The notes under the pieces are model-generated. The model was not told the DNA's origin, made no database searches, and saw only the letters and a list, made by a program, of their open reading frames with translations. The position numbers and the translations under genes were made by a program. Shown in pieces: positions 6,154-35,656 of a stretch of DNA of 36,474 bases (positions are counted from its first letter, which is position 1; each line of letters starts with the position of its first letter). Location: IMG/VR virus record IMGVR_UViG_3300029820_000012, positions 1 through 36,474 of that record. One strand, 5' to 3'. This DNA comes from a virus.

Positions 6154-6586
6154 TGGCGATCAGGCCGTGGCCGTAGGTCCCGCCGAAAAAGCCCGCGACG
6201 GCTCCCGAGACCACGCTGAAGAGCGCCACGAGGTAGTCGTGCCTGCGCCCGCCACGGACGTTCTCGCGCTCGATGCGCGCCGCCTCGTCGCGGTCGCGGA
6301 ACCAGCAGCGCCCCTCCGAGGTCAGCTCGCCGAATTCCGCCCGCGGGCCGGGCACCGGCTGCGGCGCGATCAGGCCCTTTTCCGCAAGCGCCTCGTAGAC
6401 GGCGCGCTCCCTGCCGTATCCCGGCGAGTACCTGCATTCCTCGTTTCCGTGCGCGTCGGTGGCCGCCGCCTCGGACAGCTCGCCGTAGAGCCTGCGGGCT
6501 ATGTGCTCGTCCACCGACCCGCCGTTCTCCTCAATCTCGAGGAGCCTCCTGAGATAGGACTGCTCCTCGCTCGTCAATTCGACCAT
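6128..6586 (-). CDS. Hypothetical protein with C-terminal TM anchor (152 aa)
   Basis: GC3-biased minus frame. GGAGG SD. C-terminal hydrophobic helix. Confidence 0.55.
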   Translation of the reverse strand: MVELTSEEQSYLRRLLEIEENGGSVDEHIARRLYGELSEAAATDAHGNEECRYSPGYGRERAVYEALAEKGLIAPQPVPGPRAEFGELTSEGRCWFRDRDEAARIERENVRGGRRHDYLVALFSVVSGAVAGFFGGTYGHGLIAIIRSWLGL

Positions 6587-6621
6587 CCGGACCTCCGCCC
6601 CGATCGCTATGGCAGTTCATG

Positions 6622-6638
6622 CGAGGCCTTGGGCCTCG
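6622..6638. promoter_or_regulatory. Palindrome CGAGGCC-TTG-GGCCTCG in the divergent promoter region upstream of the ParB-like gene
   Basis: Read directly. 7-bp arms, 3-nt spacer. Confidence 0.4.
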
Positions 6639-6652
6639 AGACAGGAGGATAC

Positions 6653-7906
6653 ATGCAATTCGAGAAGAAGTCTGTGCGCCTGGGCGATATCCGCCCGAGC
6701 GGGCAGAACCCGCGCGAGGACTTCGGCGACATCGGCGCCCTGGCCCGCAGCATCGAGGCGACCGGCGGCGAGCCGCTGAACCCGCCCGTGGTCGTGGCGG
6801 ACGGCAACGTGTTCCGCATCGCGGACGGCGAGCGCCGCTACCGCGCACTGTCCTCGATTTACGGGGAGGACCGCGAGGTCTCCGCGCTGGTGGCGGAGAG
6901 CATGGACGAGGCCGACGAGCTCGTGGCCATGCTCGCCACCGACGACAAGCGCCAGCTGACCGAGGCCGAGCGCGCACGCGGCGTGCAGCAGATGCTCGTG
7001 CTTGGCGTCGACGAGCAGCGCATCGAGCGCGCCAGCCGAGCCACCGCCGGGCAGATCCGCGCGGCGCGCAGGCTTCGCGGGAGTATCGAGGGCCGCCAGG
7101 TGACGCTGGAGCAGCTCGAGGCCGCGAGCGCCTTCGACGACGAGAGGGACGTCGAGGCGGTCCTCGCCGCAGGTGACGGCTGGGCGGGCAAGGCCGACCA
7201 GATCCGCCGCCGCAACGAGCGCGAGGAGGCCAAGGCCGAGGACTACGACGCCTTCGGAGATGCGGGGATTCCCGTGGTGAAGGAGCAGCCGGAGGGTTTC
7301 AACTACACGGACTGGGCCAACGTCGGCCTCGCCGCCCAGAAACTCGAGGGGAAGGAGTTCGCCGCCGGCACCGTTGCCGTGTGGAAGGGCAGCTACTGGG
7401 ACCTCTACGAGCCGGATGACGGCTCGGGCGCCGGGCCCGAGAAGACCGAGGAGGAGATTCGGGCCGAGCAGGAGGCCGAGCGCGAGAAGGCGGCGCTCGA
7501 GGAACTGTACAGGAGCCTGATCGGCTTCGTGGCGTCCGGCGCTTTCGCCATGTCCAAGGACCTCATGGTGGAGGTGCGCGTGGGCCGCGAGGACCCGCCC
7601 GCGCTGCTCATGGCGATGGGCGGCGACAGCCACCCCGAGAACGAGGGGCGTTTCGGGCTCGTGCGAGACGAGTTCGCCCGCAACCTCAAGGCGTGCAGGC
7701 CCAGCGAGTACGAGGCCGGCTGCTGGCTCATGGCGGCGGCCAAGGACATGGCCCAGCTCAACAACCGCTGGGGCGGCGACGACGCGGAGGCGTGGCTCGA
7801 CCACTATGACATCTTCCTCTCCGCGGGCTTCGAGCCCGGCGAGGAGGACGTGTGGCTCATGGAGAGGGTGCAGGCGAGCGCCAAGGAGGAGGAGAAGGAT
7901 GAGTAG
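6653..7906 (+). CDS. ParB-like nuclease-domain protein (ParB/Srx N-terminal fold)
   Basis: N-term LGDIRPSGQNPREDFGDIGALARSIEATGGEPLNPPVVVADGNVFRIADGERRYRAL contains the ParB GERRxRA box. CAGGAGG SD. Acidic C-terminal tail. Confidence 0.7.
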   Translation: MQFEKKSVRLGDIRPSGQNPREDFGDIGALARSIEATGGEPLNPPVVVADGNVFRIADGERRYRALSSIYGEDREVSALVAESMDEADELVAMLATDDKRQLTEAERARGVQQMLVLGVDEQRIERASRATAGQIRAARRLRGSIEGRQVTLEQLEAASAFDDERDVEAVLAAGDGWAGKADQIRRRNEREEAKAEDYDAFGDAGIPVVKEQPEGFNYTDWANVGLAAQKLEGKEFAAGTVAVWKGSYWDLYEPDDGSGAGPEKTEEEIRAEQEAEREKAALEELYRSLIGFVASGAFAMSKDLMVEVRVGREDPPALLMAMGGDSHPENEGRFGLVRDEFARNLKACRPSEYEAGCWLMAAAKDMAQLNNRWGGDDAEAWLDHYDIFLSAGFEPGEEDVWLMERVQASAKEEEKDE

Positions 7907-8255
7907 CGAGAAGAAGGTCAGGGTGACGGTGGAGGCGTGCGGCGAGGCCCGCGCTTTCGAGTGCCGTTGCGCGACGGTCTCGACCGCCAACGGGGACGGC
8001 TCCGGCGACTCTTGCTTCGTGGGCGCGACCAGCACCAGGGACCTGTTCGCGCTCGCCTGCGAGTGCACCGACGCGCTCTGCGTGGCCTTCAGCCAGGCGG
8101 GCGTCCCGGACAGGAACGCGCGCAAGCTCGTGCTCATAGCCGCCCTCGGCGCCAATCCCCATGGGCACGCCGACAGCATCCAGACCACCGACCTGGACGC
8201 GCGCAGGGAGATCCGCGACATGGCTGCGGAGCTTGGCGTCGATGCCGACATCTAG
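7899..8255 (+). CDS. Hypothetical Cys-rich protein (118 aa)
   Basis: GGAGGAGAAGG SD. In-frame ATG overlapping the ParB-like stop. Confidence 0.5.
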   Translation: MSSEKKVRVTVEACGEARAFECRCATVSTANGDGSGDSCFVGATSTRDLFALACECTDALCVAFSQAGVPDRNARKLVLIAALGANPHGHADSIQTTDLDARREIRDMAAELGVDADI

Positions 8256-9435
8256 CGAGCGCCGGGCGGTCGTGCAGCGCGGGGCGGACGGCCGCTGGTT
8301 CGCCCGCCCCTACATGGGCACCGACCGCGCCACGGGCAGGCGGATCAGGCCGTATAAGTCCTGGGACGGGGGCCTGACCCGCGAACAGGCCCAGGCCGAG
8401 TGCGACAAATGGGTCGCGACCTATATCCCCTCCTCGGCGCAGGACAGCTCCAAGCGCCTGTCATCGATGCTCGTGACCTATGTCTCTGACCCGGTGACCG
8501 GCCTGTCCGACAACTCGGTCGCAGCCTACCGCAGCGTGATCAGGACGATGGTGGAGCCGACCATCGGGCGCATCCCCTACGACCAGCTGCAGCCGTGGGA
8601 CGTGTCGGCGGCGTACCGCACGCTGCTCGCGCCCAGGACGGGCAAGGGGCTGTCGCCCAAGACCGTGCGGCTCATGCACTCGCTACTCAAGGTCGCGTAC
8701 GGGAAGTGGCGCCATGTCATCGGCTACAACGTCATGCTCGAGGTCCCGGCCCCCAAGGTGAAACCAGGGGAGCCGTTCGCCCTGTCCGAGCTCGATGCGG
8801 ACGGGCTGTCCCGCGCGATGGTGTCCGCCATGTCCTCGCACGACGCCACGGGCGCCAACATCGCCCGGCGCACCGAGGCCATGGCTGTCTTCCTCGCGCT
8901 CCACACGGGCATGCGGGTCGGGGAGGTCTGCGGCCTGCAGCGCCGCGACTGGCGCCGCTCACTGCACGACATCCACGTAGCCGGGCAGGCCGTCGAGAAG
9001 CCCAGCCTGCACAGGCAGCCCTTCACCAAGGGCAAGCGCTCGCGGAACGTCTCGATCCCGCCGGCGGTCGAGGCGCAGCTGGAGCGCCACCTGGCGTGGC
9101 AGGACACGTGGCTCGTCCGCAAGGGGCCGGCCGCGCCCCTGATCACCTTCGGGCCCGCGGGAGGGCTCGCGAGGCCGTCGACCGTGACGGCCCGGTTCAA
9201 GGCGATCGCGCGCGAGCTCGAGCTGCCCGGGGAGACGGTCTTCCACACGCTTCGGCACACGCACGCCACGTGGCTGCTCACGCACGGGTGGGACATGCGC
9301 CTGGTGCAGGAGCGCCTGGGGCACGCGAACGTCAAGACGACGCTCGAGATATACGGCTCGGTGCTGCCGGGCCGCGACAGGGAGGCCGCCGCGGCCTTCA
9401 CCGATTCGATCTACGGAGGTGATATGGATGGATAA
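8242..9435 (+). CDS. Second full-length tyrosine integrase (arm-binding N-domain plus catalytic domain)
   Basis: N-term RRAVVQRGADGRWFARPYMGTDRATGRRIRPYKSWDGGLTREQAQAECDKW is the integrase arm-binding pattern. C-term RVGEVCGLQRRDW...FHTLRHTHATWLL...LGHANVKTTLEIYGSVLP has the R..HxxR..Y box. Confidence 0.85.
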   Translation: MPTSSERRAVVQRGADGRWFARPYMGTDRATGRRIRPYKSWDGGLTREQAQAECDKWVATYIPSSAQDSSKRLSSMLVTYVSDPVTGLSDNSVAAYRSVIRTMVEPTIGRIPYDQLQPWDVSAAYRTLLAPRTGKGLSPKTVRLMHSLLKVAYGKWRHVIGYNVMLEVPAPKVKPGEPFALSELDADGLSRAMVSAMSSHDATGANIARRTEAMAVFLALHTGMRVGEVCGLQRRDWRRSLHDIHVAGQAVEKPSLHRQPFTKGKRSRNVSIPPAVEAQLERHLAWQDTWLVRKGPAAPLITFGPAGGLARPSTVTARFKAIARELELPGETVFHTLRHTHATWLLTHGWDMRLVQERLGHANVKTTLEIYGSVLPGRDREAAAAFTDSIYGGDMDG

Positions 9436-10105
9436 GTTCAACTTCAACAGGGACTTCTACGAGGGCTGCCGCGCCCTGGGCGACAGGGAGGGCATGGCGC
9501 TCGCGTGGGCGATGCTGCGCTACGGCTACGAGGGCATCGAGCCAAAGCTGAAGCCCACCACCATGGCGGCCTTCAGCTTCGCAAGGGGGCGCATCGACGC
9601 CATGGTGAGCGGCAGCATGGGCGGCCGCGCAAGGGCCGCCAAGTCTTCCGGTCGGGTGCCTTGCCAAGGGGGTAGCCAAGGGGGTAGCCAAGGGGGTAGC
9701 CAAGGGGCTACCCAACAGGGTAACCAACAGAAGGAGAAGGAGAAGGAGAAGGAGATAACCCTTGCGGGTTATAGCGCGGCCCGCCAAGCCCCCGACGACT
9801 TCGACCCGCCCTCGATGGAGGACGTCGAGGCCTACTTCGCCGCCAACTGCCTGCGCGGCGACCCCCGCCAGTTCTTCGACCACTACGCAGCACAGGGCTG
9901 GACGCTGCCGAGCGGCCTGCCCGTGACCGACGTGTGGGCGCTTGCCCGCAACTGGAGCCGCAAGCAGGTCGGCTTCGATGCCGACCGCAAGGCGCGGGGC
10001 GGGCAGACCTCCCAGGAGGTCGAGCGGGCATCCGTGTGGAAGCCCGTGAAGACTGATGCGGAGCGCATAGTCGAACTCAGGCGCGAGCTGGGTGAGGCGT
10101 CATGA
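9428..10105 (+). CDS. Putative replication initiation / replisome-organizer-like protein with internal low-complexity linker
   Basis: N-term DKFNFNRDFYEGCRALGDREGMALAWAMLRYGYEG resembles phage replisome-organizer N-domains. Linker QGGSQGGSQGGS...KEKEKEKE is encoded by DNA tandem repeats. GGAGGT SD. Confidence 0.45.
   Translation: MDKFNFNRDFYEGCRALGDREGMALAWAMLRYGYEGIEPKLKPTTMAAFSFARGRIDAMVSGSMGGRARAAKSSGRVPCQGGSQGGSQGGSQGATQQGNQQKEKEKEKEITLAGYSAARQAPDDFDPPSMEDVEAYFAANCLRGDPRQFFDHYAAQGWTLPSGLPVTDVWALARNWSRKQVGFDADRKARGGQTSQEVERASVWKPVKTDAERIVELRRELGEAS
9661..9750 (+). repeat. Coding tandem repeats: 12-nt CCAAGGGGGTAG x3 then 6-nt AAGGAG x4
   Basis: Read directly inside the CDS 9428-10105. 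Confidence 0.8.
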
Positions 10106-11608: not shown

Positions 11609-11835
11609 ACCGCAGGGATGTGACCGAAGAGCTGTCCGAGAAGGTGGGGAAGTGTCCCCGGTGCGGGGTCGAGCCTATGGTGGAGGTCATGCGCGGCCAT
11701 CCGCGACAGCCCCACTTGGTGGGCGTGGAGTGCCCCGTCTGCCAAGTGAAGTACTACGCCTTTTGGTTGAACGTGGGATCGGCATCGCTTGGGCACGCCG
11801 TGGCCAAGCTCGCGGACAGTTGGAACAGCCGGTGA
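11605..11835 (+). CDS. Small Zn-ribbon protein (CPRC...CPVC)
   Basis: ATGA overlap. Two CxxC pairs. Confidence 0.5.
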   Translation: MNRRDVTEELSEKVGKCPRCGVEPMVEVMRGHPRQPHLVGVECPVCQVKYYAFWLNVGSASLGHAVAKLADSWNSR

Positions 11836-12044
11836 TCCGCTCGGCGGCCGAGCTGTTCCGCGCGACCGCCTGGCGCACGGTGCCCTATCTGGTTTCGGGC
11901 CCCGCGCGCCGGGCGCTCGTGCACGGCCGGGCAGACGCGCCGAGCGTGTCGGCGAGGGAGATCAGGGATTCAGAACGAAGGGCGAGGGCGCTGCAGCGCG
12001 ACCGCGCCCGCGCGCTCAAGAGATCGAGGAAGGCGAAGCGATGA
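11832..12044 (+). CDS. Hypothetical basic protein (GTG start)
   Basis: GTGA overlap. Continuous GC3-rich frame to 12044. Confidence 0.4.
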   Translation: MIRSAAELFRATAWRTVPYLVSGPARRALVHGRADAPSVSAREIRDSERRARALQRDRARALKRSRKAKR

Positions 12045-12141
12045 GGTTGTTTGAGAAGCTGTGGCGGATGCTCGCCGAGAACCGCCGCGTGCGCAAGAGC
12101 ATCGAGGCACGCCGCGCCCGCAGGTGCAGGAGGTCGATGAG

Positions 12142-12390
12142 ATGACGGTGATGTGGGACGTGCAGGAGAGGACGTGCGCGGTCTGCGGGAAGGTCTTCAT
12201 CCCGAAGGCGCCCCACGCCAAGTACTGCTCGGAGGCGTGCCGGCGCGAGCACGACCTGCGCCGCGCGAAGGAGGCCCGCCGCAAGGGCGCCAAGCCGAAG
12301 CGCGACAGGGTCGACCGCTACCTGGCGGGCTCCGGCGCGGCGTATGACGAGCTCCAGGCCATGCGGCGCGAGGTCGCGATGAGATATTGA
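12142..12390 (+). CDS. Zinc-finger protein (CAVCGKVF...KYCSEACRREH)
   Basis: C-x2-C...Y-C-S-x2-C motif. ATGA overlap with a possible 34-codon ORF 12041-12145. Confidence 0.5.
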   Translation: MTVMWDVQERTCAVCGKVFIPKAPHAKYCSEACRREHDLRRAKEARRKGAKPKRDRVDRYLAGSGAAYDELQAMRREVAMRY

Positions 12391-12426
12391 GTTTCCGCAG
12401 GTAGACATAGGTAGATATATAATTAA

Positions 12427-12458
12427 GGCCGCTGGCGTTGGAGCGCCGGCGGCCTTTG
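12427..12458 (+). terminator. GC hairpin (GGCCGCTGGCG/CGCCGGCGGCC) plus TTTGG at the end of the early operon
   Basis: Read directly. One mismatch in an 11-bp stem. Confidence 0.45.
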
Positions 12459-12519
12459 GCAAAGACGCCTCCCGGCATCCTCTATATGGCGTAGAGCATG
12501 GTACCACGCGGGAGGTCAC

Positions 12520-12972
12520 ATGGATGCACGTGAATATCTGGAGACTGTACGGGCCGCCCAGCGCGGCATCGACCGCAGGCTGGCGGTCATCCAGTCGATG
12601 CAGGCGCGCGAGCAGGTGCGCGCCCAGCGCTACGACGCCGTGGGCAAGGGCGCGCACGGCACGGACTTCATGCGCTCGACGGACGACCGCATAGACTACG
12701 AGCGCCGTAGCGGCGCCGAGCTGTCCGAGCTGCGGCACGAGGTGGAGCGGGGTCGCGAGCTCTGCGCGGGCGTGCGCTCCGCCAACCCAGGCAAGCGCTG
12801 GGGCGACGTGCTGGAGCTGCGCTACTGCGAGGACCGCACGCTGCAGGAGATCGCGGGGACCTTGGGCGTGTCGGTGAGGTCGGTGAACTCCGACCTGTGC
12901 GCCGCCCTGGACTGGACGGACATGGTCGGGCTGGCGGCAGCCCGATCCGGTCTCGGCCGCGCCGCAGTCTGA
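12520..12972 (+). CDS. Sigma-70 region-4-like HTH protein; putative late-gene transcription activator
   Basis: C-terminal WGDVLELRYCEDRTLQEIAGTLGVSVRSVNSDLCAALDW is an ECF-sigma region-4 HTH. Lies directly upstream of the packaging module. GGGAGG SD. Confidence 0.6.
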   Translation: MDAREYLETVRAAQRGIDRRLAVIQSMQAREQVRAQRYDAVGKGAHGTDFMRSTDDRIDYERRSGAELSELRHEVERGRELCAGVRSANPGKRWGDVLELRYCEDRTLQEIAGTLGVSVRSVNSDLCAALDWTDMVGLAAARSGLGRAAV

Positions 12973-13040
12973 GCTAGATATAACTCTATCGAGACCCGTC
13001 GGCTCCGCGCCGGCGGGTTTCTCTCTTCTTGCTGGCTGCA

Positions 13041-13148
13041 CGCGATTGCACACGGTTGCACGCCGTTGCACACAATTGCACGCGATTGCCTACGATTGCA
13101 CGCAATTGCCTACGATTGCACGCGATTGCACACCGTTGCACGTTGCGG
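13041..13148. repeat. Array of about 11 tandem 10-bp repeats (CRCNRTTGCA; TTGCAC core) with exact helical phasing, flanked by direct GATATAACT (12977-12985 and 13153-13161); candidate packaging-recognition or activator-binding site
   Basis: Read directly. Every printed 10-mer block between 13041 and 13148 ends in TTGCA/TTGCC. Confidence 0.85.
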
Positions 13149-13296
13149 CTGGGATATAACTAGGGTGTCGATTCGCAGCGCCGCCCGCGCGGTGTGCGGG
13201 TCGGAGTGCGTGGAAGCACAGATGAGTGGCCGGGGTCCCCTTAGCAGTTCAGGGCCCTGGCCTTTCTATTGAACGACAACGTAATGAGGTGGGTCC

Positions 13297-13497
13297 GTGG
13301 TCACACGCGAGGCTATCGCCCGTGCCGCAAGCCGGTACGACACCGTAATGGCGTGGGCTTTCCGCCGCGCCCTGGGCATCGCCCGCCGTGCGGGCGGGCG
13401 CAAGTGCAAGGGGGCCGGCAAGTCCTTCGAGCGCCTGCGCTACGCCGGGCTCGAGGAATGCATGGCCAACCGCGGGCGCTCCCCGGTGGAGTTCTAG
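13297..13497 (+). CDS. Small basic protein (66 aa, GTG start)
   Basis: GC3-rich frame. GAGGTG SD. Overlapping frame 13269-13497 is GC3-poor and rejected. Confidence 0.5.
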   Translation: MVTREAIARAASRYDTVMAWAFRRALGIARRAGGRKCKGAGKSFERLRYAGLEECMANRGRSPVEF

Positions 13498-13499
13498 CC

Positions 13500-13814
13500 G
13501 TGGCCACCAAGACCCGCTACGCCAACGGCCATGCCCGCCGGCAGGTGCGCGCCTGGCTCAAGGCGCAGGGGCTGCCGTGCCACATCTGCGGCGGGGCCAT
13601 CGACTACGAGCTGCCGGCAGGCGACCCGATGAGCTTCGAGGTGGACGAGGTCGTGCCCGTGTCCAAGGGCGGCTCGCCCATCGACCGCGCGAACGTCGCG
13701 CCGGCCCACCGGATCTGCAACGAGCGGCGCGGCAACAAGAGTCTCGCCGCGCTGAACGGCTCGATCTCGCCGCGCCCCCGCGACGTCGGCTGCGCGACCT
13801 CGCTGCCGTGGTGA
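13500..13814 (+). CDS. HNH endonuclease (packaging-associated)
   Basis: CHICGGAIDYELPAGDPMSFEVDEVVPVSKGGSPIDRANVAPAHRICNERRGNK is the HNH motif. Position immediately before the terminase genes is typical of cos-type HNH phages. Confidence 0.8.
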   Translation: MATKTRYANGHARRQVRAWLKAQGLPCHICGGAIDYELPAGDPMSFEVDEVVPVSKGGSPIDRANVAPAHRICNERRGNKSLAALNGSISPRPRDVGCATSLPW

Positions 13815-13924
13815 CCCGACCCTGGGGGATAGCCCCCTCCCCGGGGGGCCGAAGGCGTGCCCCGCGGCATTGCGCCTTTTTTGCGCAGGCCCCGAAACCG
13901 AGTCCATACCGGGAGGTGCATGGA

Positions 13925-14374
13925 ATGTCCACGAAGTCCACGAAGCCGAGGGGCAAGCCCTGGACCCCGGACGAGCGGGAGTTCGTCAGAAACGCGTACC
14001 CGGCGCTCGGACCTGCGGCTATCGCGAAGAAGCTCAAGCGCTCGCGCTCCGGCGTGTGCGCACTCATCAAGAGAATGAAGGAGAGCGGCGAGATCGCGAC
14101 CGGCGAGTCCACGGGGCAGTCCGTGGGCGCGGGCATCTCGGCGCCCCCGGCCGACGGCCCGGACGGCCGCCAGGACACGCTCGGGAGGCTCCGGTGGGTG
14201 CGGCAGGTCATCGAGCGGCAGCTCTACGACGCCGAGCCAAGCCAGGCGGCCCGGCTCGCCAAGGAGTACCGCGAGACGCTCGAGCAGATCGAGCGAATAG
14301 AGGGGGCCGGGGATGACGGTGGCGACGATGTCATCATCAACGCCGTCTCTGTCCTGCGCGACGTCCTCGGCTAA
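13925..14374 (+). CDS. Putative terminase small subunit (N-terminal HTH, C-terminal coiled coil)
   Basis: WTPDEREFVRNAYPALGPAAIAKKLKRSRSGVCALIKRMKESGEI is an HTH. Gene lies between HNH and the large terminase. GGGAGGTG SD. Confidence 0.55.
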   Translation: MSTKSTKPRGKPWTPDEREFVRNAYPALGPAAIAKKLKRSRSGVCALIKRMKESGEIATGESTGQSVGAGISAPPADGPDGRQDTLGRLRWVRQVIERQLYDAEPSQAARLAKEYRETLEQIERIEGAGDDGGDDVIINAVSVLRDVLG

Positions 14375-15812
14375 GCCGAGGCTGCGCCTCGTCCAGCCCT
14401 ACGAGAGATCCATCGGCTCCCTCGCGGTCGAGCTCGCCCCGACGATGGGCTACGACCTCGTGCCGTGGCAGGAGCAGCTCGCCCACGACATCGGCGCCGT
14501 GGACGCGAGCGGCAAATGGGTCCACCCCCGCGTCGGCATCTCCATCCCGCGCCAGCAGGGCAAGTCCGTCGACCTCATCGTGTGGGTCGCGATCATGGCG
14601 GCGCTGGCCGGCTACAAGGTGCTGTGGACCGAGCACAACTACTCCACGACCATGGAGATGGTCGCCCGCTTCCGCAAGATCTTCGGCCGCCGCGTCGGCG
14701 ACACGTCCGAGGGAATCCCGCGCTGGCGCAAGCTCCTGGTCGAGGTCTGCTCCCAGACCGGCCAGGAGTGGATGCGGTTCAGCTCCGGCGGCGTCATCCA
14801 GTTCTCGACGAGGACCAAGTCCTCGCGCCTGGGCTTCTCGTTCGACATCGTCATATACGACGAGGCCCAGGAGCTCACGGGCATCCACACCCAGGTCGTC
14901 AACCCGACCACGGTGTCCGGAGCCAAGCACAACCTGATGATCGTGTACGCCGGAACGCCGACCCGCGCCGGCAACCCCGCCGAGGTGTTCAAGAACCTCC
15001 GGCAGCAGGCGTGGGAGGGCGGCGAGAAGGCGTCCGACCTGCTGTGGCTGGAGTACGGCGTCGAGGAGGTCGGCGACATCTGGGACGAGAGCCGCTGGCC
15101 GGAGGTCATGCCATCGCTCGGATACCATGCCGACATCCGCGCCATCCGCACCGGAATGAAGGACATGGACGAGCTGGGAGCCGCCCAGGAATACCTGGGC
15201 TACTGGCTGCCCTCGGAGGAGCAGGTGGAGCCGCCCGTCATCGGCGCCGACGCATGGGGCGAGTGCCTCGTGGGGAGCGGCCCCGAGCTGACCGCCGGCT
15301 GCAGGATCTGCGCCGGCGTGAGGTTCAGCGCCGACGGCTCGACCGTCGCCGTGGCGTGCGCCGTGCGGCCGCCCGGCTCGCCGACCGTGCACGTTGAGCT
15401 TCCCTTCTGCAAGGACCCGGAGCCCAGCACGGATTGGCTGGCCTACTGGATCGCCGCGAGGGCGGGCAGGTACGCGTGCGTCGCCATCGACGGCAAGGCG
15501 GGCGCCGGCGCCCTGTGCGACAAGCTCGAGGGCATGGGCATGCCCAAGGACTACATCCTGCGCCCGAGCACCGACCAGGCCGTGACCGCCGCGAGCCTCA
15601 TCTCGTCCGGCGCGAAGGCGGGCTCGGTCACGCATATCGCGTGCCCGGCGCTCGACCTCTCCGCCGAGACCTCACCCAAGCGCAAGATCGGCTCGTCGGG
15701 CGGCTGGGGCTTCGGCGGGGACAACGCCGCGCCCATCGAGGCAGCGGGGCTGGCGCTGCTCGCGCTCAGCACATCGAAGAGAAAACCCGGAATGAAGGCG
15801 AGGGTCACTTGA
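14313..15812 (+). CDS. Terminase large subunit
   Basis: Walker A-like SIPRQQGKSVDL and Walker B FDIVIYDEAQE. N-terminal LVPWQEQ motif. Coding signal begins inside the overlap with TerS, so the exact start (14313 or 14328) is uncertain. Confidence 0.85.
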   Translation: MTVATMSSSTPSLSCATSSAKPRLRLVQPYERSIGSLAVELAPTMGYDLVPWQEQLAHDIGAVDASGKWVHPRVGISIPRQQGKSVDLIVWVAIMAALAGYKVLWTEHNYSTTMEMVARFRKIFGRRVGDTSEGIPRWRKLLVEVCSQTGQEWMRFSSGGVIQFSTRTKSSRLGFSFDIVIYDEAQELTGIHTQVVNPTTVSGAKHNLMIVYAGTPTRAGNPAEVFKNLRQQAWEGGEKASDLLWLEYGVEEVGDIWDESRWPEVMPSLGYHADIRAIRTGMKDMDELGAAQEYLGYWLPSEEQVEPPVIGADAWGECLVGSGPELTAGCRICAGVRFSADGSTVAVACAVRPPGSPTVHVELPFCKDPEPSTDWLAYWIAARAGRYACVAIDGKAGAGALCDKLEGMGMPKDYILRPSTDQAVTAASLISSGAKAGSVTHIACPALDLSAETSPKRKIGSSGGWGFGGDNAAPIEAAGLALLALSTSKRKPGMKARVT

Positions 15813-17227
15813 TCTCGATACCTTACGCCGTGGCGTCCGCCGACGGCCTGCTCGAGGAGGACCGCGAGACGGTGCGCTGCCTGCTCAACAGCTGGCAGAC
15901 GCACTACAGGGGCAACCTCCTGCGATCGGACTACTACGAGGCGCGCAACATGCTCAAGGACCTCGGCATCTCCGTCCCCGACTCGCTGCGCGACCTGGAG
16001 GTAGCGTGCGGCTGGGGCTACAAGTGCGTGGAGGTCATGCGCGACCACATCGCCTTCGACGGGTTCACGTGCCCCGACGACGCGGACTTCGACGACCTGC
16101 TCACCTCCGTGGCCAAGCGCAACAAGATGGCCACGCGCGTCGGCAAGGCCGTCAACTCCGCGCTCAAGTACTGCTTCTCCATGCTCGTGGTGACGGCGGA
16201 CGAGGACGGGCACGCCCGCATCTCGGCGTACCCGCCGACGCTGTGCACGGGCATCTGGGACGACGTCCACGAGTGCCTGTCCTCCGGCATGTTCGTCGTC
16301 TCCTTCGCCAAGGACCGCGGGCGGCCCACGAACCGCCCGGACTGGGTCAACGTGATGCTGCCGGACCGCATGGTGCGCATCCGCGAGGTTCGCCGCAACG
16401 AGTGGGCGGCGGAGTACGTGGAGCACGGCCTGGGCGCCGTGCCCATGTTCGTCATGCCGCACAACCCCGACGACGACCGACCGTTCGGCGTGTCCAGGAT
16501 CAACTCCGAGGTGCGCTGGAACATCGACTGCGCCATGCGCGCCAACGTCAACGAGGAGATCGCCGCCGCGTTCGCCGCGTCCACGCAGAAGTACCTGCTG
16601 GGCACCGACGGCGACGCGTTCGCCGACAAGACCAAGTGGAGCGCCTTCATCGGCTCCATCTTCGAGGTCACCAAGACCGAGGACGGCACGATCCCGCAGT
16701 TCGGCCAGCTCACGCAGCCGAGTATGCAGCCCATGACCGAGCACTTCGGCAACCTGTGCAAGCGCATGAGCGCCGCGACCGGTATCCACGTGGGGCAGTT
16801 CGGCATCATGAGCGACAACCCCAGCTCCGCCGAGGCGATCTACGCCGAGAACGAGCCGCTCATCCTCAAGTGCAAGAGCTTCATCCGCGAGGCAAAGGCG
16901 GCGCTGGCGAACGCCGCGACCGCCGCGATCGCGACGGAGCTCGGGTGCTCATACGAGGAGGCGGAGGACGCCTGCGGCGTGTCCGTCCACTTCCTGAACC
17001 CCGCCATGCCTACCCTGGCCCAGCAGACAGACAGCTCCATCAAGCTCGCGTCTGTGGTGGACGGCTTCGCCGGCACGCCGACCTTCTGGCGGCTCAACGG
17101 CCTCGATGACGACGAGGTGCGCAACGTCTCATCCGAGATCAGGCGCAACGTGACGCGCTCGGCGGCGCTCGACCTGATGGCGGGCGCCGCCCAGGCGGCG
17201 GAGCCCGCGCCGCCCGCCGATGATTAG
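15809..17227 (+). CDS. Portal protein (TTG start)
   Basis: 472 aa. N-terminal ...RCLLNSWQTHYRGNLLRSDYYEARN is a portal-like motif. Sits between terminase and the head morphogenesis gene. TTGA overlap. Confidence 0.75.
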   Translation: MISIPYAVASADGLLEEDRETVRCLLNSWQTHYRGNLLRSDYYEARNMLKDLGISVPDSLRDLEVACGWGYKCVEVMRDHIAFDGFTCPDDADFDDLLTSVAKRNKMATRVGKAVNSALKYCFSMLVVTADEDGHARISAYPPTLCTGIWDDVHECLSSGMFVVSFAKDRGRPTNRPDWVNVMLPDRMVRIREVRRNEWAAEYVEHGLGAVPMFVMPHNPDDDRPFGVSRINSEVRWNIDCAMRANVNEEIAAAFAASTQKYLLGTDGDAFADKTKWSAFIGSIFEVTKTEDGTIPQFGQLTQPSMQPMTEHFGNLCKRMSAATGIHVGQFGIMSDNPSSAEAIYAENEPLILKCKSFIREAKAALANAATAAIATELGCSYEEAEDACGVSVHFLNPAMPTLAQQTDSSIKLASVVDGFAGTPTFWRLNGLDDDEVRNVSSEIRRNVTRSAALDLMAGAAQAAEPAPPADD

Positions 17228-18616: not shown

Positions 18617-18642
18617 AGGCCATCCGCACGGGTGGCCTTTTT
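18617..18642 (+). terminator. Intrinsic terminator after the tRNA pair (AGGCCA...TGGCCT stem, TTTTT)
   Basis: Read directly. Confidence 0.6.
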
Positions 18643-18655
18643 CATGCCGAAAAGA

Positions 18656-18691
18656 GCCCCGCACGGGGCAAGACGATGCCCCGCACGGGGC
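18656..18691. promoter_or_regulatory. Two direct copies of the near-palindromic 14-mer GCCCCGCACGGGGC, 22 bp apart, upstream of the scaffold/capsid genes
   Basis: Read directly. The same 10-mer core forms the hairpin at 1014-1049. Confidence 0.6.
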
Positions 18692-34296: not shown

Positions 34297-34527
34297 ATGA
34301 CCAAAGATGAGATCGTCAAGAAGCTGACCAGCAGAAAGTTCTGGCTGTGCACTGCGGCCTTCCTCGGGTCCGTTGCGGCGAGCGTTGCCGGACTTGCGAC
34401 TGACAACCAGGCGGTCGTGGCCATCGGCACCGTTTGCGGGGTCGCAAGCGCTGCCATCTACGCCGCTGCAGAGCAGGCCGTGGACGCCGCGCGACTCAAG
34501 TCGGGAGGCGAGCATGACGGAGACTAA
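34297..34527 (+). CDS. Holin (two TM helices)
   Basis: 76 aa. TM1 FWLCTAAFLGSVAASVAGL and TM2 AVVAIGTVCGVASAAIYAAA. Charged C-terminus. GGAGGAGG SD. Confidence 0.65.
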   Translation: MTKDEIVKKLTSRKFWLCTAAFLGSVAASVAGLATDNQAVVAIGTVCGVASAAIYAAAEQAVDAARLKSGGEHDGD

Positions 34528-35656
34528 GGCCGAGCCCAAGCGCAAGCTGCCGATGCGCAGCGTTTTCGCCATCGTCCTCGCGCTCGTCGCGGCCCTCGCC
34601 GCCCCGTGCGGAGCCGAGGCGTACCAGAGCGTCGACAAGTACGTGAGCGGCGGCCACGGGTACCTCAATGCGAGCTACCTGGTCATTCACGAGACCGCGA
34701 ACCCCGGCGCTTCTGCCTACAACCACACTTTGTTGTGGTCGCGTGACGACACCTATGCCGTCCACCACGTGATGGAGCTTGACGGGTCAACCGTGTATAA
34801 CACGGTGCCTGAGGGCCGCTTGTGCTGGCACGTGGGCAACGGCAACGGCTACACGATCGGCATCGAGTTGGCCCACGCCACCAATGCCTCCGACTTCGCG
34901 AAGCAGTGGTCCGAGGCCGTCAAATGGGCCGGAGATGAGTTGCGCGCCCGCGGGTGGGACACCTCGAGACTCTTGAGCCACTACGAGGCGGCTCAGCGCT
35001 GGGGCGGTTCCGACCACACCGACCCGAATGGCTATTTCGCCCAGTACGGTAAGAGCTGGTGGGAGTTCAAGCAGGCCGTCGCCGCCTATTTGGGCTCCGG
35101 CTACGTGGCGCCCATTGCGCCGACCAACGGCAACGGCGGGACCTATGAGGGGGGCGGCTACAGCTCACCGGCGGCCAGCTTCCCGAAATCGACTGGTGCC
35201 TGCGTGAGCGTCCACTATGCGCTGCACAACCGTGGCGGCGGCTGGAACTCCGAGGTAACGAACTTCGACGACGCCAGCGAGAACGGCTTCGCGGGCATGC
35301 CTTACGGCTCCCATGACATGCTGATCGCATGGGCCGATACCGGTACCCTACGCTATCGCGTCCATACCCGCGAATCCGGATGGCTCGACTGGGTGCAGGC
35401 CGCATCCTACGGCGACAGCGTGAACGGCATGGCGGGTGTCTGGGGGCAGATCATCGATGGTGTCCAGATGTACTACGTCACGCCTGGCGGTGACTACCGC
35501 CAGGTCTACTACCGCTCTCAGGATGTCGATCATGCCGGATGGTGGGGCGAGGTCTGCGACGACGGAACCACGTATGGCGGAGACGATTACGCCGGTTATT
35601 ACGGTCACGCGCTCGATCGCCTGCAGGTCTACATCTCCGACGGGACTCGCCGATGA
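34514..35656 (+). CDS. Endolysin: N-acetylmuramoyl-L-alanine amidase (amidase_2/PGRP) with N-terminal signal/SAR-like segment and C-terminal aromatic wall-binding repeats
   Basis: [22 protein letters not shown]...[37 protein letters not shown]...[17 protein letters not shown] is the amidase_2 Zn-binding pattern. N-term [31 protein letters not shown]. Confidence 0.8.

What the first reader, a model, noticed from the sequence alone, without database searches (positions are those of the whole stretch)
12977..13161. Eleven phased 10-bp TTGCAC repeats flanked by a direct GATATAACT repeat, between the late activator and the HNH/terminase genes
From 13041 to 13148 the sequence is a near-perfect 10-bp periodic array (cgcgattgca / cacggttgca / cgccgttgca ...). 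The period is one helical turn, so all TTGCAC cores sit on the same face of the helix. This is the geometry expected for cooperative wrapping by an oligomeric DNA-binding protein. Location suggests the packaging recognition site of a cos/pac system (small terminase, possibly with the HNH nuclease). A binding array for the sigma-like late activator encoded just upstream is the alternative. The spurious track ORF 13066-13272 is produced by the repeats.
Basis: partly seen in the sequence, partly recalled or inferred. Interest (0 to 1): 0.72.

Follow-up and report, generated by a model that had tools for sequence, protein, structure and literature searches.

The report
Late-activator binding array at phage promoter
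The eleven 10-bp repeats are most likely the docking sites for the small sigma-region-4-like late-gene activator encoded just upstream, at the late promoter of a Collinsella prophage; this is a long, strictly phased example of a known phage switch, not a DNA-packaging site.

Summary
The repeat is real. Eleven 10-bp units lie in strict register at 13036-13145: 8 TTGCAC, 1 CTGCAC, 2 TTGCCT. Shuffled sequence gives none. The array sits between an intrinsic terminator that ends a 150-aa sigma-region-4-like gene (12520-12972) and an invariant GGGATATAACTAGGGTG element. From there a co-directional late block runs to the endolysin.

All 102 Collinsella relatives with the downstream anchor keep an array. 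In 101 it has 5-14 whole units; one locus gave a chain of one. The last hexamer is always 13 nt before TATAAC.

The repeat core tracks the protein's predicted recognition helix: ..VNSDLC.. with TTGCAC, ..VHSDMS.. with TTGCAG, ..IQADLS.. with TTGCNN. It does not track the packaging genes. Two unrelated terminase modules occur behind both main array types.

Three local cassette swaps, one in an unrelated 26%-GC phage, replace only the helix-turn-helix and the repeats, between conserved flanks.

This matches the published Ltr/RinA/Alt paradigm of late activators that bind direct repeats just after their own gene. I therefore call it a new, unusually long and strictly phased member of a known kind.

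It is open whether the hairpin plus T-run in the conserved leader means a Q-like antitermination step. No binding or transcript data exist.

The parts
12520..12972 (+). Gene for a 150-aa late-regulator candidate: an N-terminal helical hairpin followed by a C-terminal sigma-70 region-4-like helix-turn-helix (Ltr superfamily, 'LtrA'/Sigma70_r4 type).
   Evidence: Pfam Sigma70_r4_2 at 5e-7 and Sigma70_r4 at 2.4e-6, both above cut-off. phrog_36 'transcriptional regulator' aligns over residues 1-122. AlphaFold model has pLDDT 89.4, with helices H3-41, H50-88, H94-103, H108-115, H119-136. Only the C-terminal 39-65 residues superpose on sigma region-4 domains.
12874..12927 (+). Codons for the predicted recognition helix (residues 119-136, VRSVNSDLCAALDWTDMV). 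This is the segment that differs between clades.
   Evidence: Residues 1-120 are 95-100% identical in all clades. Residues 121-150 are 97-100% (clade A), 63-73% (B) and 53-57% (C) identical. Helix boundaries come from the model.
12991..13031 (+). Intrinsic terminator T1 (13-pair stem plus TCTCTTCTT tail) that ends the regulator gene's transcript.
   Evidence: Terminator scan. RNA fold -26.8 kcal/mol, z = -3.96, 0 of 200 shuffles as stable. Clade B has a different hairpin plus T-run at the same place.
13036..13145 (+). The array: 11 units of 10 bp, consensus TTGC-A-C-R-Y-N-R. The hexamers resemble -35 elements and point toward the promoter. Proposed binding sites of the upstream protein.
   Evidence: Present in all 102 relatives with the anchor: 5-14 units in 101, a chain of one in one locus, mode 9.
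13142..13154 (+). 13-nt spacer between the promoter-proximal hexamer (13136-13141) and the -10-like hexamer.
   Evidence: The spacer is 13 nt in 102 of 102 relatives. It is 12-14 nt in five other lineages: L216, L222, L224, L075, L285.
13155..13160 (+). TATAAC, the candidate -10 hexamer of the late promoter, inside the invariant GGGATATAACTAGGGTG (13151-13167).
   Evidence: Invariant in all relatives. The equivalent position in other lineages reads TATAAA, TATAAG, TGATATGGT, TGCTATAAT and TGTTATAAT. No -35 lies at a canonical distance, read directly from the sequence. No transcription start has been mapped.
13162..13270 (+). Highly conserved leader with three predicted hairpins (13168-13204, 13206-13219, 13228-13262). 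The last is followed by TTTCTATT (13263-13270) and is a candidate attenuator or terminator, T2.
   Evidence: Near-identical in 58 distinct sequences. Fold. Variation is compatible with the pairs (G-U to G-C changes) but is too scarce to prove structure. The mosaic junction to the packaging modules lies directly after it.
13297..13497 (+). First late ORF (66 aa, phrog_34586, function unknown), preceded by a GAGGTGG ribosome-binding site.
13500..13814 (+). HNH endonuclease gene.
   Evidence: Pfam HNH at 3.1e-5; phrog_338 at 1.8e-26.
13925..14374 (+). 149-aa helix-turn-helix protein at the small-terminase position (TerS candidate). It is not linked to array type.
   Evidence: Weak HTH hits only. 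Absent from type-2 modules, which carry the same array.
14313..15812 (+). Large terminase subunit.
   Evidence: phrog_9 at 5e-41.

Best explanation
The array is the upstream activating site of the late promoter of a temperate Collinsella phage. The 150-aa protein encoded immediately upstream is read here as a member of the Ltr (late transcriptional regulator) superfamily, of the Sigma70_r4 ('LtrA') type. It has a long helical hairpin and a sigma-region-4-like helix-turn-helix.

Proposed mechanism:
- Each helix-turn-helix reads one -35-like hexamer (TTGCAC).
- The hexamers are exactly 10 bp apart, so the protomers line up on one face of the helix. They probably bind cooperatively, perhaps through the helical hairpins.
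- The promoter-proximal protomer sits 13 nt upstream of a weak -10-like hexamer (TATAAC), at about -31 to -26. A normal -35 is missing there.
- From that position it recruits or stabilises host RNA polymerase. Transcription of ORF66, HNH, the terminase, head, tail and lysis genes then starts.

Shown by computation: the anatomy, its conservation, the fixed spacing, the co-variation with the recognition helix, and independence from the terminase type.

Inferred: actual binding, cooperativity, the exact -10 hexamer and start site, and the contact with RNA polymerase.
For: 1. Position. The array fills the gap between terminator T1 of the regulator gene and an invariant -10-like element. A co-directional late block runs from there to the endolysin at 34373-35656.

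2. Conservation. All 102 relatives with the anchor keep an array, 5-14 whole units in 101 of them. The last hexamer is always 13 nt from TATAAC.

3. Co-variation. Helix VRSVNSDLC(A/S)AL (39 loci) goes with TTGCAC. VRSVHSDMSSAL (45 loci) goes with TTGCAG. VRSIQADLSAA(L/V) (18 loci) goes with mixed TTGCNN. There are no exceptions.

4. Distant homologues carry their own phased arrays:
- ..ERQAHADHDAAL with 7 x CTGCAG;
- ..ESYAKLCCSAAL with 4-5 x RTACG;
- ..ERWCRDAIAPAM with 3 x GTGCCGG;
- ..ERWCRRAVETAL with 6 x GTGCCA.

5. Three local swaps. In window vs L018, L216 vs L220 and L283 vs L285, identity is about 90% or more through the N-terminal coding part. It collapses over the HTH, T1 and the array, and returns to 93-100% at the -10 hexamer.

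6. An unrelated 26%-GC phage (L075) has the same layout. Its HTH swap changes TTGCAC to TTGAAC.

7. The array type is independent of two unrelated packaging modules.

8. The C-terminal domain superposes on -35-binding sigma-4 domains. The repeat hexamers are -35-like and have the orientation of a -35 element relative to the -10.

9. Published precedent. Ltr proteins (RinA, ArpU, LtrA = Sigma70_r4, LtrB, LtrC) need direct repeats just distal to their own gene. A terminator lies between that gene and terS. The C-terminal region sets repeat specificity (PMC3753634). Phi13 Ltr and TP901-1 Alt behave likewise (PMC13123087).
Against: - There is no experimental binding or transcript data for this phage.
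- The gene end and the array are physically linked, so co-inheritance alone gives some association. The three bounded swaps and clade C weaken this objection but do not remove it. In clade C a roughly 0.9-kb hicAB-like insertion separates the gene from the array.
- TATAAC lacks the usual T at its last position. The proximal hexamer lies 13 nt from it, not 17 nt.
- A hairpin plus T-run lies between the putative promoter and the first late ORF. Simple activation does not explain this.
- In the best-studied relatives (phi11, 80alpha) the mapped start lies after such a terminator and more than 155 bp from the RinA site (PMC3152322). The true start here could therefore also lie downstream of the hairpin.
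- One 51%-identical relative (L221) shows no regular array.
- Phage 37, the tested LtrA member, shows no regular array either.
Confidence: 0.8

Rival explanations
1. Q-like antitermination. The same protein binds the array, but its main job is to load onto RNA polymerase at the adjacent promoter. It then makes the polymerase read through the hairpin plus T-run in the leader (13228-13270) and through later terminators, as lambda Q does at PR'/tR'.
For: - A promoter-like hexamer followed within 25-110 nt by a hairpin plus T-run, ahead of the first late gene, recurs in the window, in the unrelated L075 lineage, where it is a textbook terminator AAAGACAGCAGAAATGTTGTC followed by T7, and in 80alpha.
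- The window already has a separate terminator, T1, for the regulator gene. T2 is therefore otherwise unexplained.
- There are weak hits to phrog_79 'anti-termination protein Q-like': 5.5e-4 for the window protein and 1e-6 for L216.
- A second -10-like hexamer directly follows the first: TATAAC-TAGGGT here and TATAAT-G-TATAAT in L075.
- An internal terminator-like hairpin lies at 18617-18638 in the late block.
- The RinA authors call the mechanism 'more complex' than direct contact.
Against: - None of the 50 best Foldseek matches listed is a Q protein, and a profile search of solved structures finds no Q protein.
- The phrog_79 hits cover only the generic helix-turn-helix.
- In other Collinsella-type lineages the leader hairpins lack a T-run.
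- The leader is too conserved to give covariation.
- The second hexamer lies at about -6 to -1, not in the transcribed region where sigma-dependent pause elements sit.
- Known Q binding elements are one or two sites, not 5-14 (own knowledge).
- In phi11 and 80alpha the triphosphate 5' end maps after the terminator.
Confidence: 0.12
2. Packaging recognition site (cos or pac) bound by the small terminase and/or the HNH nuclease.
For: The array lies about 0.8 kb upstream of the terminase genes. Arrays of direct repeats do serve as TerS sites in some phages (own knowledge). HNH-terminase phages use cos sites.
Against: - The same array types and the same leader precede two unrelated packaging modules: a different TerS family and a TerL about 30% identical. 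Both modules occur with both core types.
- The core co-varies with the upstream HTH instead.
- The same architecture in L075 lies 2.5 kb and several genes upstream of its terminase.
- In HK97-type HNH phages cos lies between HNH and TerS (own knowledge). That would be 13815-13924 here, not the array.
Confidence: 0.04
3. Iterons of a replication origin, or a plasmid-type partition site bound by another phage protein such as the ParB-N protein at 6167-7906.
For: Arrays of phased direct repeats are typical of iterons and of ParR/omega-type centromeres (own knowledge). A ParB-N domain protein is encoded in the window.
Against: - The array is fixed 13 nt from a -10-like hexamer in every lineage.
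- It always follows a sigma-4-like gene and co-varies with that gene's helix.
- No replication initiator is adjacent.
- Co-variation with the ParB-N protein could not be tested, because that gene lies outside the fetched flanks.
Confidence: 0.02
4. A neutral slippage-prone minisatellite with no sequence-specific function.
For: Copy number is polymorphic (5-14), and changes occur in blocks of whole units, as unequal recombination would produce.
Against: - TTGC is kept in nearly every unit across about 900 units.
- The three promoter-proximal units are conserved in order across clades.
- The offset to the -10 hexamer is fixed.
- Analogous arrays with other cores sit at the same place in distant lineages.
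Confidence: 0.02

Closest known systems
Ltr superfamily of late transcriptional activators of Gram-positive phages (RinA, ArpU, LtrA = Sigma70_r4, LtrB = DUF1492, LtrC). Quiles-Puchalt et al. 2013, PMC3753634; Ferrer et al. 2011, PMC3152322.
   Same: - A small protein is encoded directly upstream of the packaging and late genes.
- It has a C-terminal sigma-region-4-type helix-turn-helix.
[quoted passage not shown]
- A terminator lies in the intergenic region.
- The C-terminal residues and the repeats are exchanged together between related phages, while the rest of the intergenic region stays the same (compared).
- In 80alpha I read TGGCAG, 5 nt, TGGCAG (period 11), then 11 nt, TAAAAT, about 100 nt, a terminator, then terS. 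The order of parts is the same as here.
   Different: - Published sites have 2-4 repeats of 7 nt, or 3.5 repeats of 18 bp in Phi13. Here there are 5-14 units in strict 10-bp register.
- The hosts here are Actinomycetota (Collinsella), not Firmicutes.
- tblastn found no similarity in 50,697 phage records. NCBIfam hits are below threshold.
- Phage 37, the tested LtrA member, shows no regular array.
- For RinA the mapped start is more than 155 bp from the binding site. Here a -10-like hexamer abuts the array.
Alt activator and the P-late promoter of lactococcal phage TP901-1 (Pedersen et al. 2006, as cited in PMC13123087 and PMC3152322).
   Same: The activator gene is followed at once by several imperfect direct repeats about one helical turn apart. 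In L291 I read four units with periods 10, 11, 11; the published position is -76 to -32. They lie upstream of the late promoter and terS. The L075 protein hits 'Alt-like transcription activator' phrog_2198 at 8e-5.
   Different: - No detectable homology exists between Alt and the Collinsella family (hhalign E = 0.29).
- There are four units, not 5-14.
- The distance from the last unit to the -10 region is longer, about 26 nt by my reading.
- The TP901-1 leader is about 500 nt long.
Sigma appropriation at T4 middle promoters: a MotA box centred at -30 replaces the -35 element, together with AsiA (own knowledge, not tested here).
   Same: A phage-encoded DNA-binding protein occupies a site about 12-13 bp upstream of a sigma-70-type -10 hexamer and takes the place of -35 recognition. 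The MotA box also contains TTGC.
   Different: MotA is unrelated in fold, binds a single box, and needs AsiA to remodel sigma region 4. Nothing here shows that host sigma is remodelled.
Lambdoid Q antiterminators at PR'/tR' (PMC9388147, listed; own knowledge).
   Same: The order is regulator gene, its DNA site at a promoter, a short leader, a terminator, then the late operon.
   Different: None of the 50 best listed fold matches, and no profile match, is a Q protein. Q binding elements are one or two sites. No sigma-dependent pause element is evident in the transcribed region.

Membership tests
Ltr superfamily late activator plus its repeat site (Quiles-Puchalt 2013) | The regulator gene lies immediately upstream of the packaging and late gene cluster and is co-oriented with it. 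| tested here: met
   Gene at 12520-12972, followed by ORF66, HNH, TerS-like, TerL and portal genes, with the endolysin at 34373-35656, all on the + strand.
Ltr superfamily late activator plus its repeat site (Quiles-Puchalt 2013) | A small protein with a C-terminal helix-turn-helix. For family II (LtrA) this is a match to Sigma70_r4. | tested here: met
   Pfam Sigma70_r4_2 scores 29.7 bits (cut-off 25.7). Sigma70_r4 scores 27.4 bits (cut-off 24.1). The C-terminal domain superposes on sigma-4 structures.
Ltr superfamily late activator plus its repeat site (Quiles-Puchalt 2013) | Direct repeats lie just distal to the regulator gene, upstream of the late promoter. | tested here: met
   Eleven units at 13036-13145, starting 64 nt after the stop codon.
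Ltr superfamily late activator plus its repeat site (Quiles-Puchalt 2013) | [quoted passage not shown] | tested here: met
   Perfect helix-to-core association in 102 loci, and three bounded cassette swaps. This is comparative evidence, not functional evidence.
Ltr superfamily late activator plus its repeat site (Quiles-Puchalt 2013) | A terminator lies between the regulator gene and the late genes. | tested here: met
   T1 at 12991-13031, z = -3.96. A second candidate lies at 13228-13270. Both are predicted only.
Ltr superfamily late activator plus its repeat site (Quiles-Puchalt 2013) | The protein binds the repeats and is required and sufficient for late transcription. | not testable with these tools
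   Needs EMSA or footprinting, a reporter assay and a knockout.
Ltr superfamily late activator plus its repeat site (Quiles-Puchalt 2013) | Detectable sequence homology to a characterised member. | tested here: inconclusive
   phrog_36 joins the window protein with the L075-type proteins, and those proteins hit Alt-like phrog_2198; L285 hits ArpU TIGR01637 below threshold. There is no tblastn hit in 50,697 phage records. hhalign against TP901-1 Alt gives E = 0.29.
Complete sigma factor (ECF or sigma-70 family) | A sigma-2 domain for -10 recognition and core binding, in addition to sigma-4. | tested here: not met
   The N-terminal 90 residues form one long helical hairpin. Whole-chain matches to ECF sigma factors have rmsd 13-17 A and E above 0.5. 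NCBIfam sigma models match region 4 only and score far below cut-off.
Lambdoid Q antiterminator | Homology or fold similarity to Q-lambda, Q21 or Q82. | tested here: not met
   No Q protein is among the 50 best Foldseek PDB matches listed, nor in the profile search of PDB sequences. The phrog_79 hit covers only the HTH.
Lambdoid Q antiterminator | A promoter-proximal binding element followed by a terminator that is read through only when the factor is present. | tested here: inconclusive
   The layout is compatible: array, -10-like hexamer, leader, hairpin plus T-run (also L075). Termination and read-through are not testable here.
Terminase recognition site (cos/pac) | The site co-varies with, and is specific to, the cognate small terminase. 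| tested here: not met
   The same array types lie in front of two unrelated TerS/TerL sets.
Terminase recognition site (cos/pac) | Virion DNA ends, or packaging initiation, map at the site. | not testable with these tools
   No read data are available. Contig ends near the locus are scattered, not at one point.

The most novel reading that the evidence does not exclude
The sigma-4-like Ltr proteins may not be simple activators. They may polymerise on a phased row of -35-like hexamers and hand a protomer to RNA polymerase at the adjacent -35-less promoter. That would make the polymerase resistant to the terminator placed 25-110 nt downstream. This would be a Q-like, promoter-loaded antitermination switch that arose independently of lambdoid Q. 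Array length (5-14 units) would tune its threshold. It would also explain the long-standing oddity that RinA binds more than 155 bp, and across a terminator, from the mapped terS start.
Probability: 0.12. Interest if true: 0.75.

Novelty: new member of a known kind. Interest (0 to 1): 0.4.

Why it matters
It places the late-gene switch of a very common prophage of Collinsella aerofaciens, an abundant human gut actinobacterium, at a defined 230-bp region. It names the likely regulator and gives its operator.

The natural cassette swaps give a first recognition table for this protein family, linking helix sequence to hexamer:
- ..VNSDLC.. with TTGCAC;
- ..VHSDMS.. with TTGCAG;
- ..ERQAHADHD.. 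with CTGCAG;
- ..ESYAKLCCS.. with RTACG;
- ..SERSVKNKI.. with TTGCAC;
- ..SESSIKRII.. with TTGAAC.

Arg at the third helix position is present wherever the core keeps TGC. It is Ser in the two lineages whose cores lack TGC (RTACG and TTGAAC).

The table can be tested directly and used to build orthogonal phage-derived promoters.

The fixed 13-nt offset, and the recurring terminator after the promoter, also sharpen an open question about how Ltr/RinA proteins act.

For annotation: ORFs called across such arrays are artefacts, and such arrays should not be labelled as pac or cos sites.

Tried and rejected
- Rfam search of 12300-14000 at E up to 1: no hit.
- The sigma-70 promoter scan found no canonical -35/-10 pair anywhere in 11800-14500. 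This fits an activator-dependent promoter but gives no start site.
- blastn and tblastn against 50,697 phage records gave only one irrelevant 200-bp hit and no protein hits.
The single-protein query worked.
- RNAalifold on 58 distinct leaders found that the sequence is too conserved. Only one double change occurs, so RNA structure is neither proven nor refuted. The fold energy of the leader is not unusual for its composition (z = -1.15).
- I tested whether the protein is a complete minimal sigma factor, which could have explained the short 13-nt spacer. I rejected this because no sigma-2-like domain is present.
- I tested whether the GATATAACT pair marks the boundaries of a mobile or recombined cassette. 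I rejected this because the upstream copy is present in only 6 of 102 relatives.
- I considered the 20-bp super-period as a sign of dimeric sites. I rejected this because it is not conserved in relatives.
- I followed a phased TTGCACACAT array in L054/L117 as a possible Q-linked case. It lies at a junction with opposite-strand genes and an IS fragment, so it is uninformative.
- I looked for clustering of contig ends as a proxy for cos. Five contigs end 440-705 nt upstream of the regulator gene, but the ends are scattered. I read these as assembly breaks.
- A profile search of PDB sequences found no relative with a solved structure.
Full report
**1. The observation**

Window 13036-13145 contains eleven 10-bp units in perfect register: CTGCACGCGA, TTGCACACGG, TTGCACGCCG, TTGCACACAA, TTGCACGCGA, TTGCCTACGA, TTGCACGCAA, TTGCCTACGA, TTGCACGCGA, TTGCACACCG, TTGCACGTTG. 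Tandem Repeats Finder finds period 10 and period 20, and the repeat finder gives ten successive spacings of exactly 10.

Eight of the eleven TTGCAC on the + strand of the whole 36.5-kb window lie here. The pattern TTGC-N6-TTGC-N6-TTGC occurs eight times, all here, against none in 100 shuffles.

GATATAACT occurs exactly twice, at 12977 and 13153. The description is therefore correct, with two corrections:
- Only 8 units are exact TTGCAC.
- Only the downstream GATATAACT is a conserved feature (section 3).

**2. Surroundings**

The window is 66% G+C. Upstream lies a 150-aa ORF (12520-12972) that passes the Pfam cut-offs for Sigma70_r4_2 and Sigma70_r4. It aligns over its full length to phrog_36 'transcriptional regulator'.

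A strong intrinsic terminator (12991-13021 plus a T-rich tail, z = -3.96) follows that ORF. The array begins five bases after the tail.

After the array the order is:
- a 13-nt spacer;
- TATAAC, inside GGGATATAACTAGGGTG;
- a leader of about 110 nt;
- a 66-aa ORF (13297);
- an HNH endonuclease (13500-13814);
- a 149-aa helix-turn-helix protein at the small-terminase position (13925-14374);
- the large terminase (14313-15812);
- an SPP1-type portal (15809-17227).

The same-strand block ends with an endolysin at 34373-35656. The array thus sits at the boundary between early and late genes.

The host is Collinsella, mostly C. aerofaciens. The regulator gene was found in 57 genome loci, nearly all titled Collinsella or Coriobacteriaceae/Coriobacteriales and many on long bacterial contigs. 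It was also found in 48 IMG/VR contigs.

**3. What relatives show**

All 102 relatives that contain the downstream anchor carry an array. In 101 of them it has 5-14 whole units, with a mode of 9. One locus gave a chain of a single unit.

The last hexamer is 13 nt from TATAAC in 102 of 102. The unit consensus is TTGC-N-N-R-Y-N-R. The three promoter-proximal units are conserved in order, and copy-number changes occur in blocks of whole units.

The upstream GATATAACT is present in only 6 of 102 relatives.

The block from GGGATATAACT to CTTTCTATT is almost invariant in 58 distinct sequences. The mosaic junction with the downstream genes lies directly after it.

**4. Which protein goes with the array**

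The regulator's residues 1-120 are 95-100% identical in all relatives. The differences are concentrated from about residue 121. In the AlphaFold model (pLDDT 89) this is the recognition helix, H119-136, of a sigma-4-like helix-turn-helix.

Three helix types map without exception onto three array types:

| Recognition helix | Loci | Array core |
|---|---|---|
| VRSVNSDLC(A/S)AL | 39 | TTGCAC |
| VRSVHSDMSSAL | 45 | TTGCAG |
| VRSIQADLSAA(L/V) | 18 | mixed TTGCNN |

In the third clade a hicA/hicB-like cassette of about 0.9 kb separates the gene from the array. The array stays attached to the terminator and promoter.

The packaging genes downstream come in two unrelated versions:
- Type 1: HNH, TerS and TerL about 95% identical to the window.
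- Type 2: ORF66 about 61% and HNH about 58% identical, a ParB-like nuclease, a TerS of another PHROG family, and a TerL about 30% identical.

Both versions occur behind both TTGCAC and TTGCAG arrays. This speaks strongly against a terminase-specific site.

**5. More distant lineages**

Homologues 31-55% identical have the same scaffold and a hypervariable recognition helix (alignment A1). Each has its own phased 10-bp array at the same place:

| Lineage | Helix | Array | Distance to -10-like hexamer |
|---|---|---|---|
| L216 | ..ERQAHADHDAAL | 7 x CTGCAG | 13 nt to TATAAA |
| L220 | ..ESYAKLCCSAAL | 4-5 x RTACG | 23 nt to TATAAA |
| L222 | ..ERWCRDAIAPAM | 3 x GTGCCGG | 12 nt to TATAAG |
| L224 | ..ERWCRRAVETAL | 6 x GTGCCA | 13 nt to TGATATGGT |

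An unrelated 26%-GC viral contig (L075) turned up in a pattern search. It has a 125-aa protein of the same architecture (also phrog_36, and 'Alt-like' phrog_2198). Next come five TTGCAC units, 13 nt, TGCTATAAT, a textbook terminator, and later the terminase. Its close relatives L285-288 keep the N-terminal 90 residues and the promoter. They carry a different helix-turn-helix and TTGAAC units instead.

Sliding identity profiles for three pairs (window/L018, L216/L220, L283/L285) show the same picture. Identity is about 90% or more through the N-terminal coding part. It collapses over the helix-turn-helix, terminator and array, and returns to 93-100% exactly at the -10-like hexamer. These are three natural cassette swaps of recognition helix plus repeats.

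**6. What the protein is not**

Foldseek against the PDB gives no whole-chain match. Only the last 39-65 residues superpose on -35-binding sigma-4 domains such as SigD4, SigC4 and sigma-E region 4 on DNA.

The N-terminal half is one long helical hairpin, not a sigma-2 domain. The protein is therefore not a complete sigma factor.

None of the 50 best listed fold matches is a Q protein. A profile search of PDB sequences finds no relative.

**7. Comparison with what is known**

The Ltr superfamily paper (PMC3753634) describes small activators encoded just upstream of terS. Its family II is defined by Sigma70_r4. That paper reports the following:
- A terminator lies in the intergenic region.
- The C-terminal region sets repeat specificity.
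- Related phages differ only in the repeat block.

Phi13 Ltr needs 3.5 repeats of 18 bp. TP901-1 Alt binds four imperfect repeats at -76 to -32 (PMC13123087). I read those four units in the TP901-1 sequence with periods of 10-11 bp.

In 80alpha I read two TGGCAG repeats (period 11), 11 nt, TAAAAT, about 100 nt, a terminator, and then terS.

The window's element has all the comparative hallmarks of this kind. It differs in three ways:
- copy number (5-14 against 2-4) and strict 10-bp register;
- host phylum;
- no detectable sequence similarity to characterised members.

I therefore file it as a new member of a known kind.

**8. Mechanism**

- Shown by computation: the anatomy, conservation, fixed spacing, co-variation, and independence from the terminase.
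- Inferred: each sigma-4-like domain reads one -35-like hexamer, in the orientation a -35 element has relative to the -10.
- Inferred: protomers line one face of the helix and bind cooperatively.
- Inferred: the proximal protomer, at about -31 to -26, substitutes for the missing -35 contact at a weak -10 (TATAAC).

The geometry resembles T4 MotA boxes centred at -30. That comparison comes from my own knowledge and was not tested here.

**9. The open point**

A conserved hairpin plus TTTCTATT (13228-13270) lies between the putative promoter and the first late ORF. The regulator gene already has its own terminator.

The same order, promoter-like hexamer then terminator then first late gene, occurs in the L075 lineage and in 80alpha. 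For phi11 and 80alpha the published 5' end lies after that terminator and more than 155 bp from the RinA site. The authors call the mechanism more complex than direct contact (PMC3152322).

Two readings remain possible here:
- a Q-like antitermination component, to which I give about 0.12;
- a true start downstream of the hairpin.

The leader is too conserved for covariation to decide whether it acts as RNA.

**10. Verdict**

The packaging interpretation is not supported. The activator-array alternative is well supported by comparative evidence (confidence about 0.8 that the array is the binding site of the adjacent protein and controls late transcription).

Interest is moderate. The principle is known. 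New here are the long phased arrays, the fixed 13-nt offset across unrelated lineages, the natural specificity swaps, and the recurrent downstream terminator. These are useful, testable additions.

Noticed in passing
L042 4532-5206 (also L043-L045, L047, L215, L218): A hicA-like (56 aa) plus hicB-like (150 aa, with HTH) cassette, with its own AT-rich promoter region, is inserted between the regulator gene and terminator T1. It separates the gene from the array by about 0.9 kb without disturbing the array or promoter. The family assignment is by eye and by a weak HicB-like PHROG hit elsewhere in the window; it was not verified.
   Followed up: partly
window about 13271 (just after TTTCTATT); L004 4762-8448: A sharp mosaic junction. 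Two unrelated packaging modules are attached to one and the same promoter and leader. The second module has HNH (135 aa), a ParB-like nuclease (348 aa), a phrog_83 TerS and a distant TerL.
   Followed up: yes
window 12399-12470: Upstream of the regulator gene lies a direct repeat GGTAGACAT/GGTAGATAT followed by TATAAT. After it comes a GC-rich hairpin (GGCCGCTGGCG...CGCCGGCGGCC) followed by TTTGG. This may be the promoter or operator, or an attenuator, that times expression of the regulator itself.
   Followed up: no
window 9663-9755: Tandem 12-mer GCCAAGGGGGTA x5.4 and AGAAGG x4.5 inside ORF 9419-10105 (DUF6291). They encode GGSQ and KE repeats, so this is a coding repeat, not a regulatory array.
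   Followed up: no
window 6167-9435: A 579-aa protein with a ParB N-terminal domain is followed by a tyrosine integrase (424 aa). Both are co-oriented with and embedded in the early region rather than at a prophage end. This is an unusual position for the integrase.
   Followed up: no
window 13815-13924: A GC-rich gap with partial palindromes lies between HNH and the TerS candidate (CCTGGGGGATAGCCCCCTCCCCGGGGGGCC...). By analogy with HK97-type HNH phages, this is where I would look for cos.
   Followed up: no
window 18617-18638: A terminator-like hairpin (AGGCCATCCGCACGGGTGGCCT followed by TTTTCATGCC) lies inside the late block. It is mirrored by a hairpin on the other strand at 18656-18691.
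   Followed up: no
L221 3454-3700: A 51%-identical relative of the regulator has no phased array. Instead GCCGTTCG occurs twice, 21 nt apart, and a GATAC-N9-GTATC palindrome abuts TATAAT. This may be a different binding mode in the same family.
   Followed up: no
L054 (minus strand) 13534-13593 = L117 88-137; L064; L111: Other phased TTGCAC arrays (TTGCACACAT x5-6, TTGCACAAAT x5, TTGCACTTAT x5) occur in unrelated 39-45% GC viral contigs. Their contexts do not show a sigma-4-like gene next to them.
   Followed up: partly
A1 alignment, last about 20 residues (window protein 129-150): The C-terminal tail ALDWVDxVGxAAAReGxGQAALF is conserved across the Collinsella-type family even where the recognition helix is hypervariable. 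It is a candidate surface for RNA polymerase contact or for oligomerisation.
   Followed up: no
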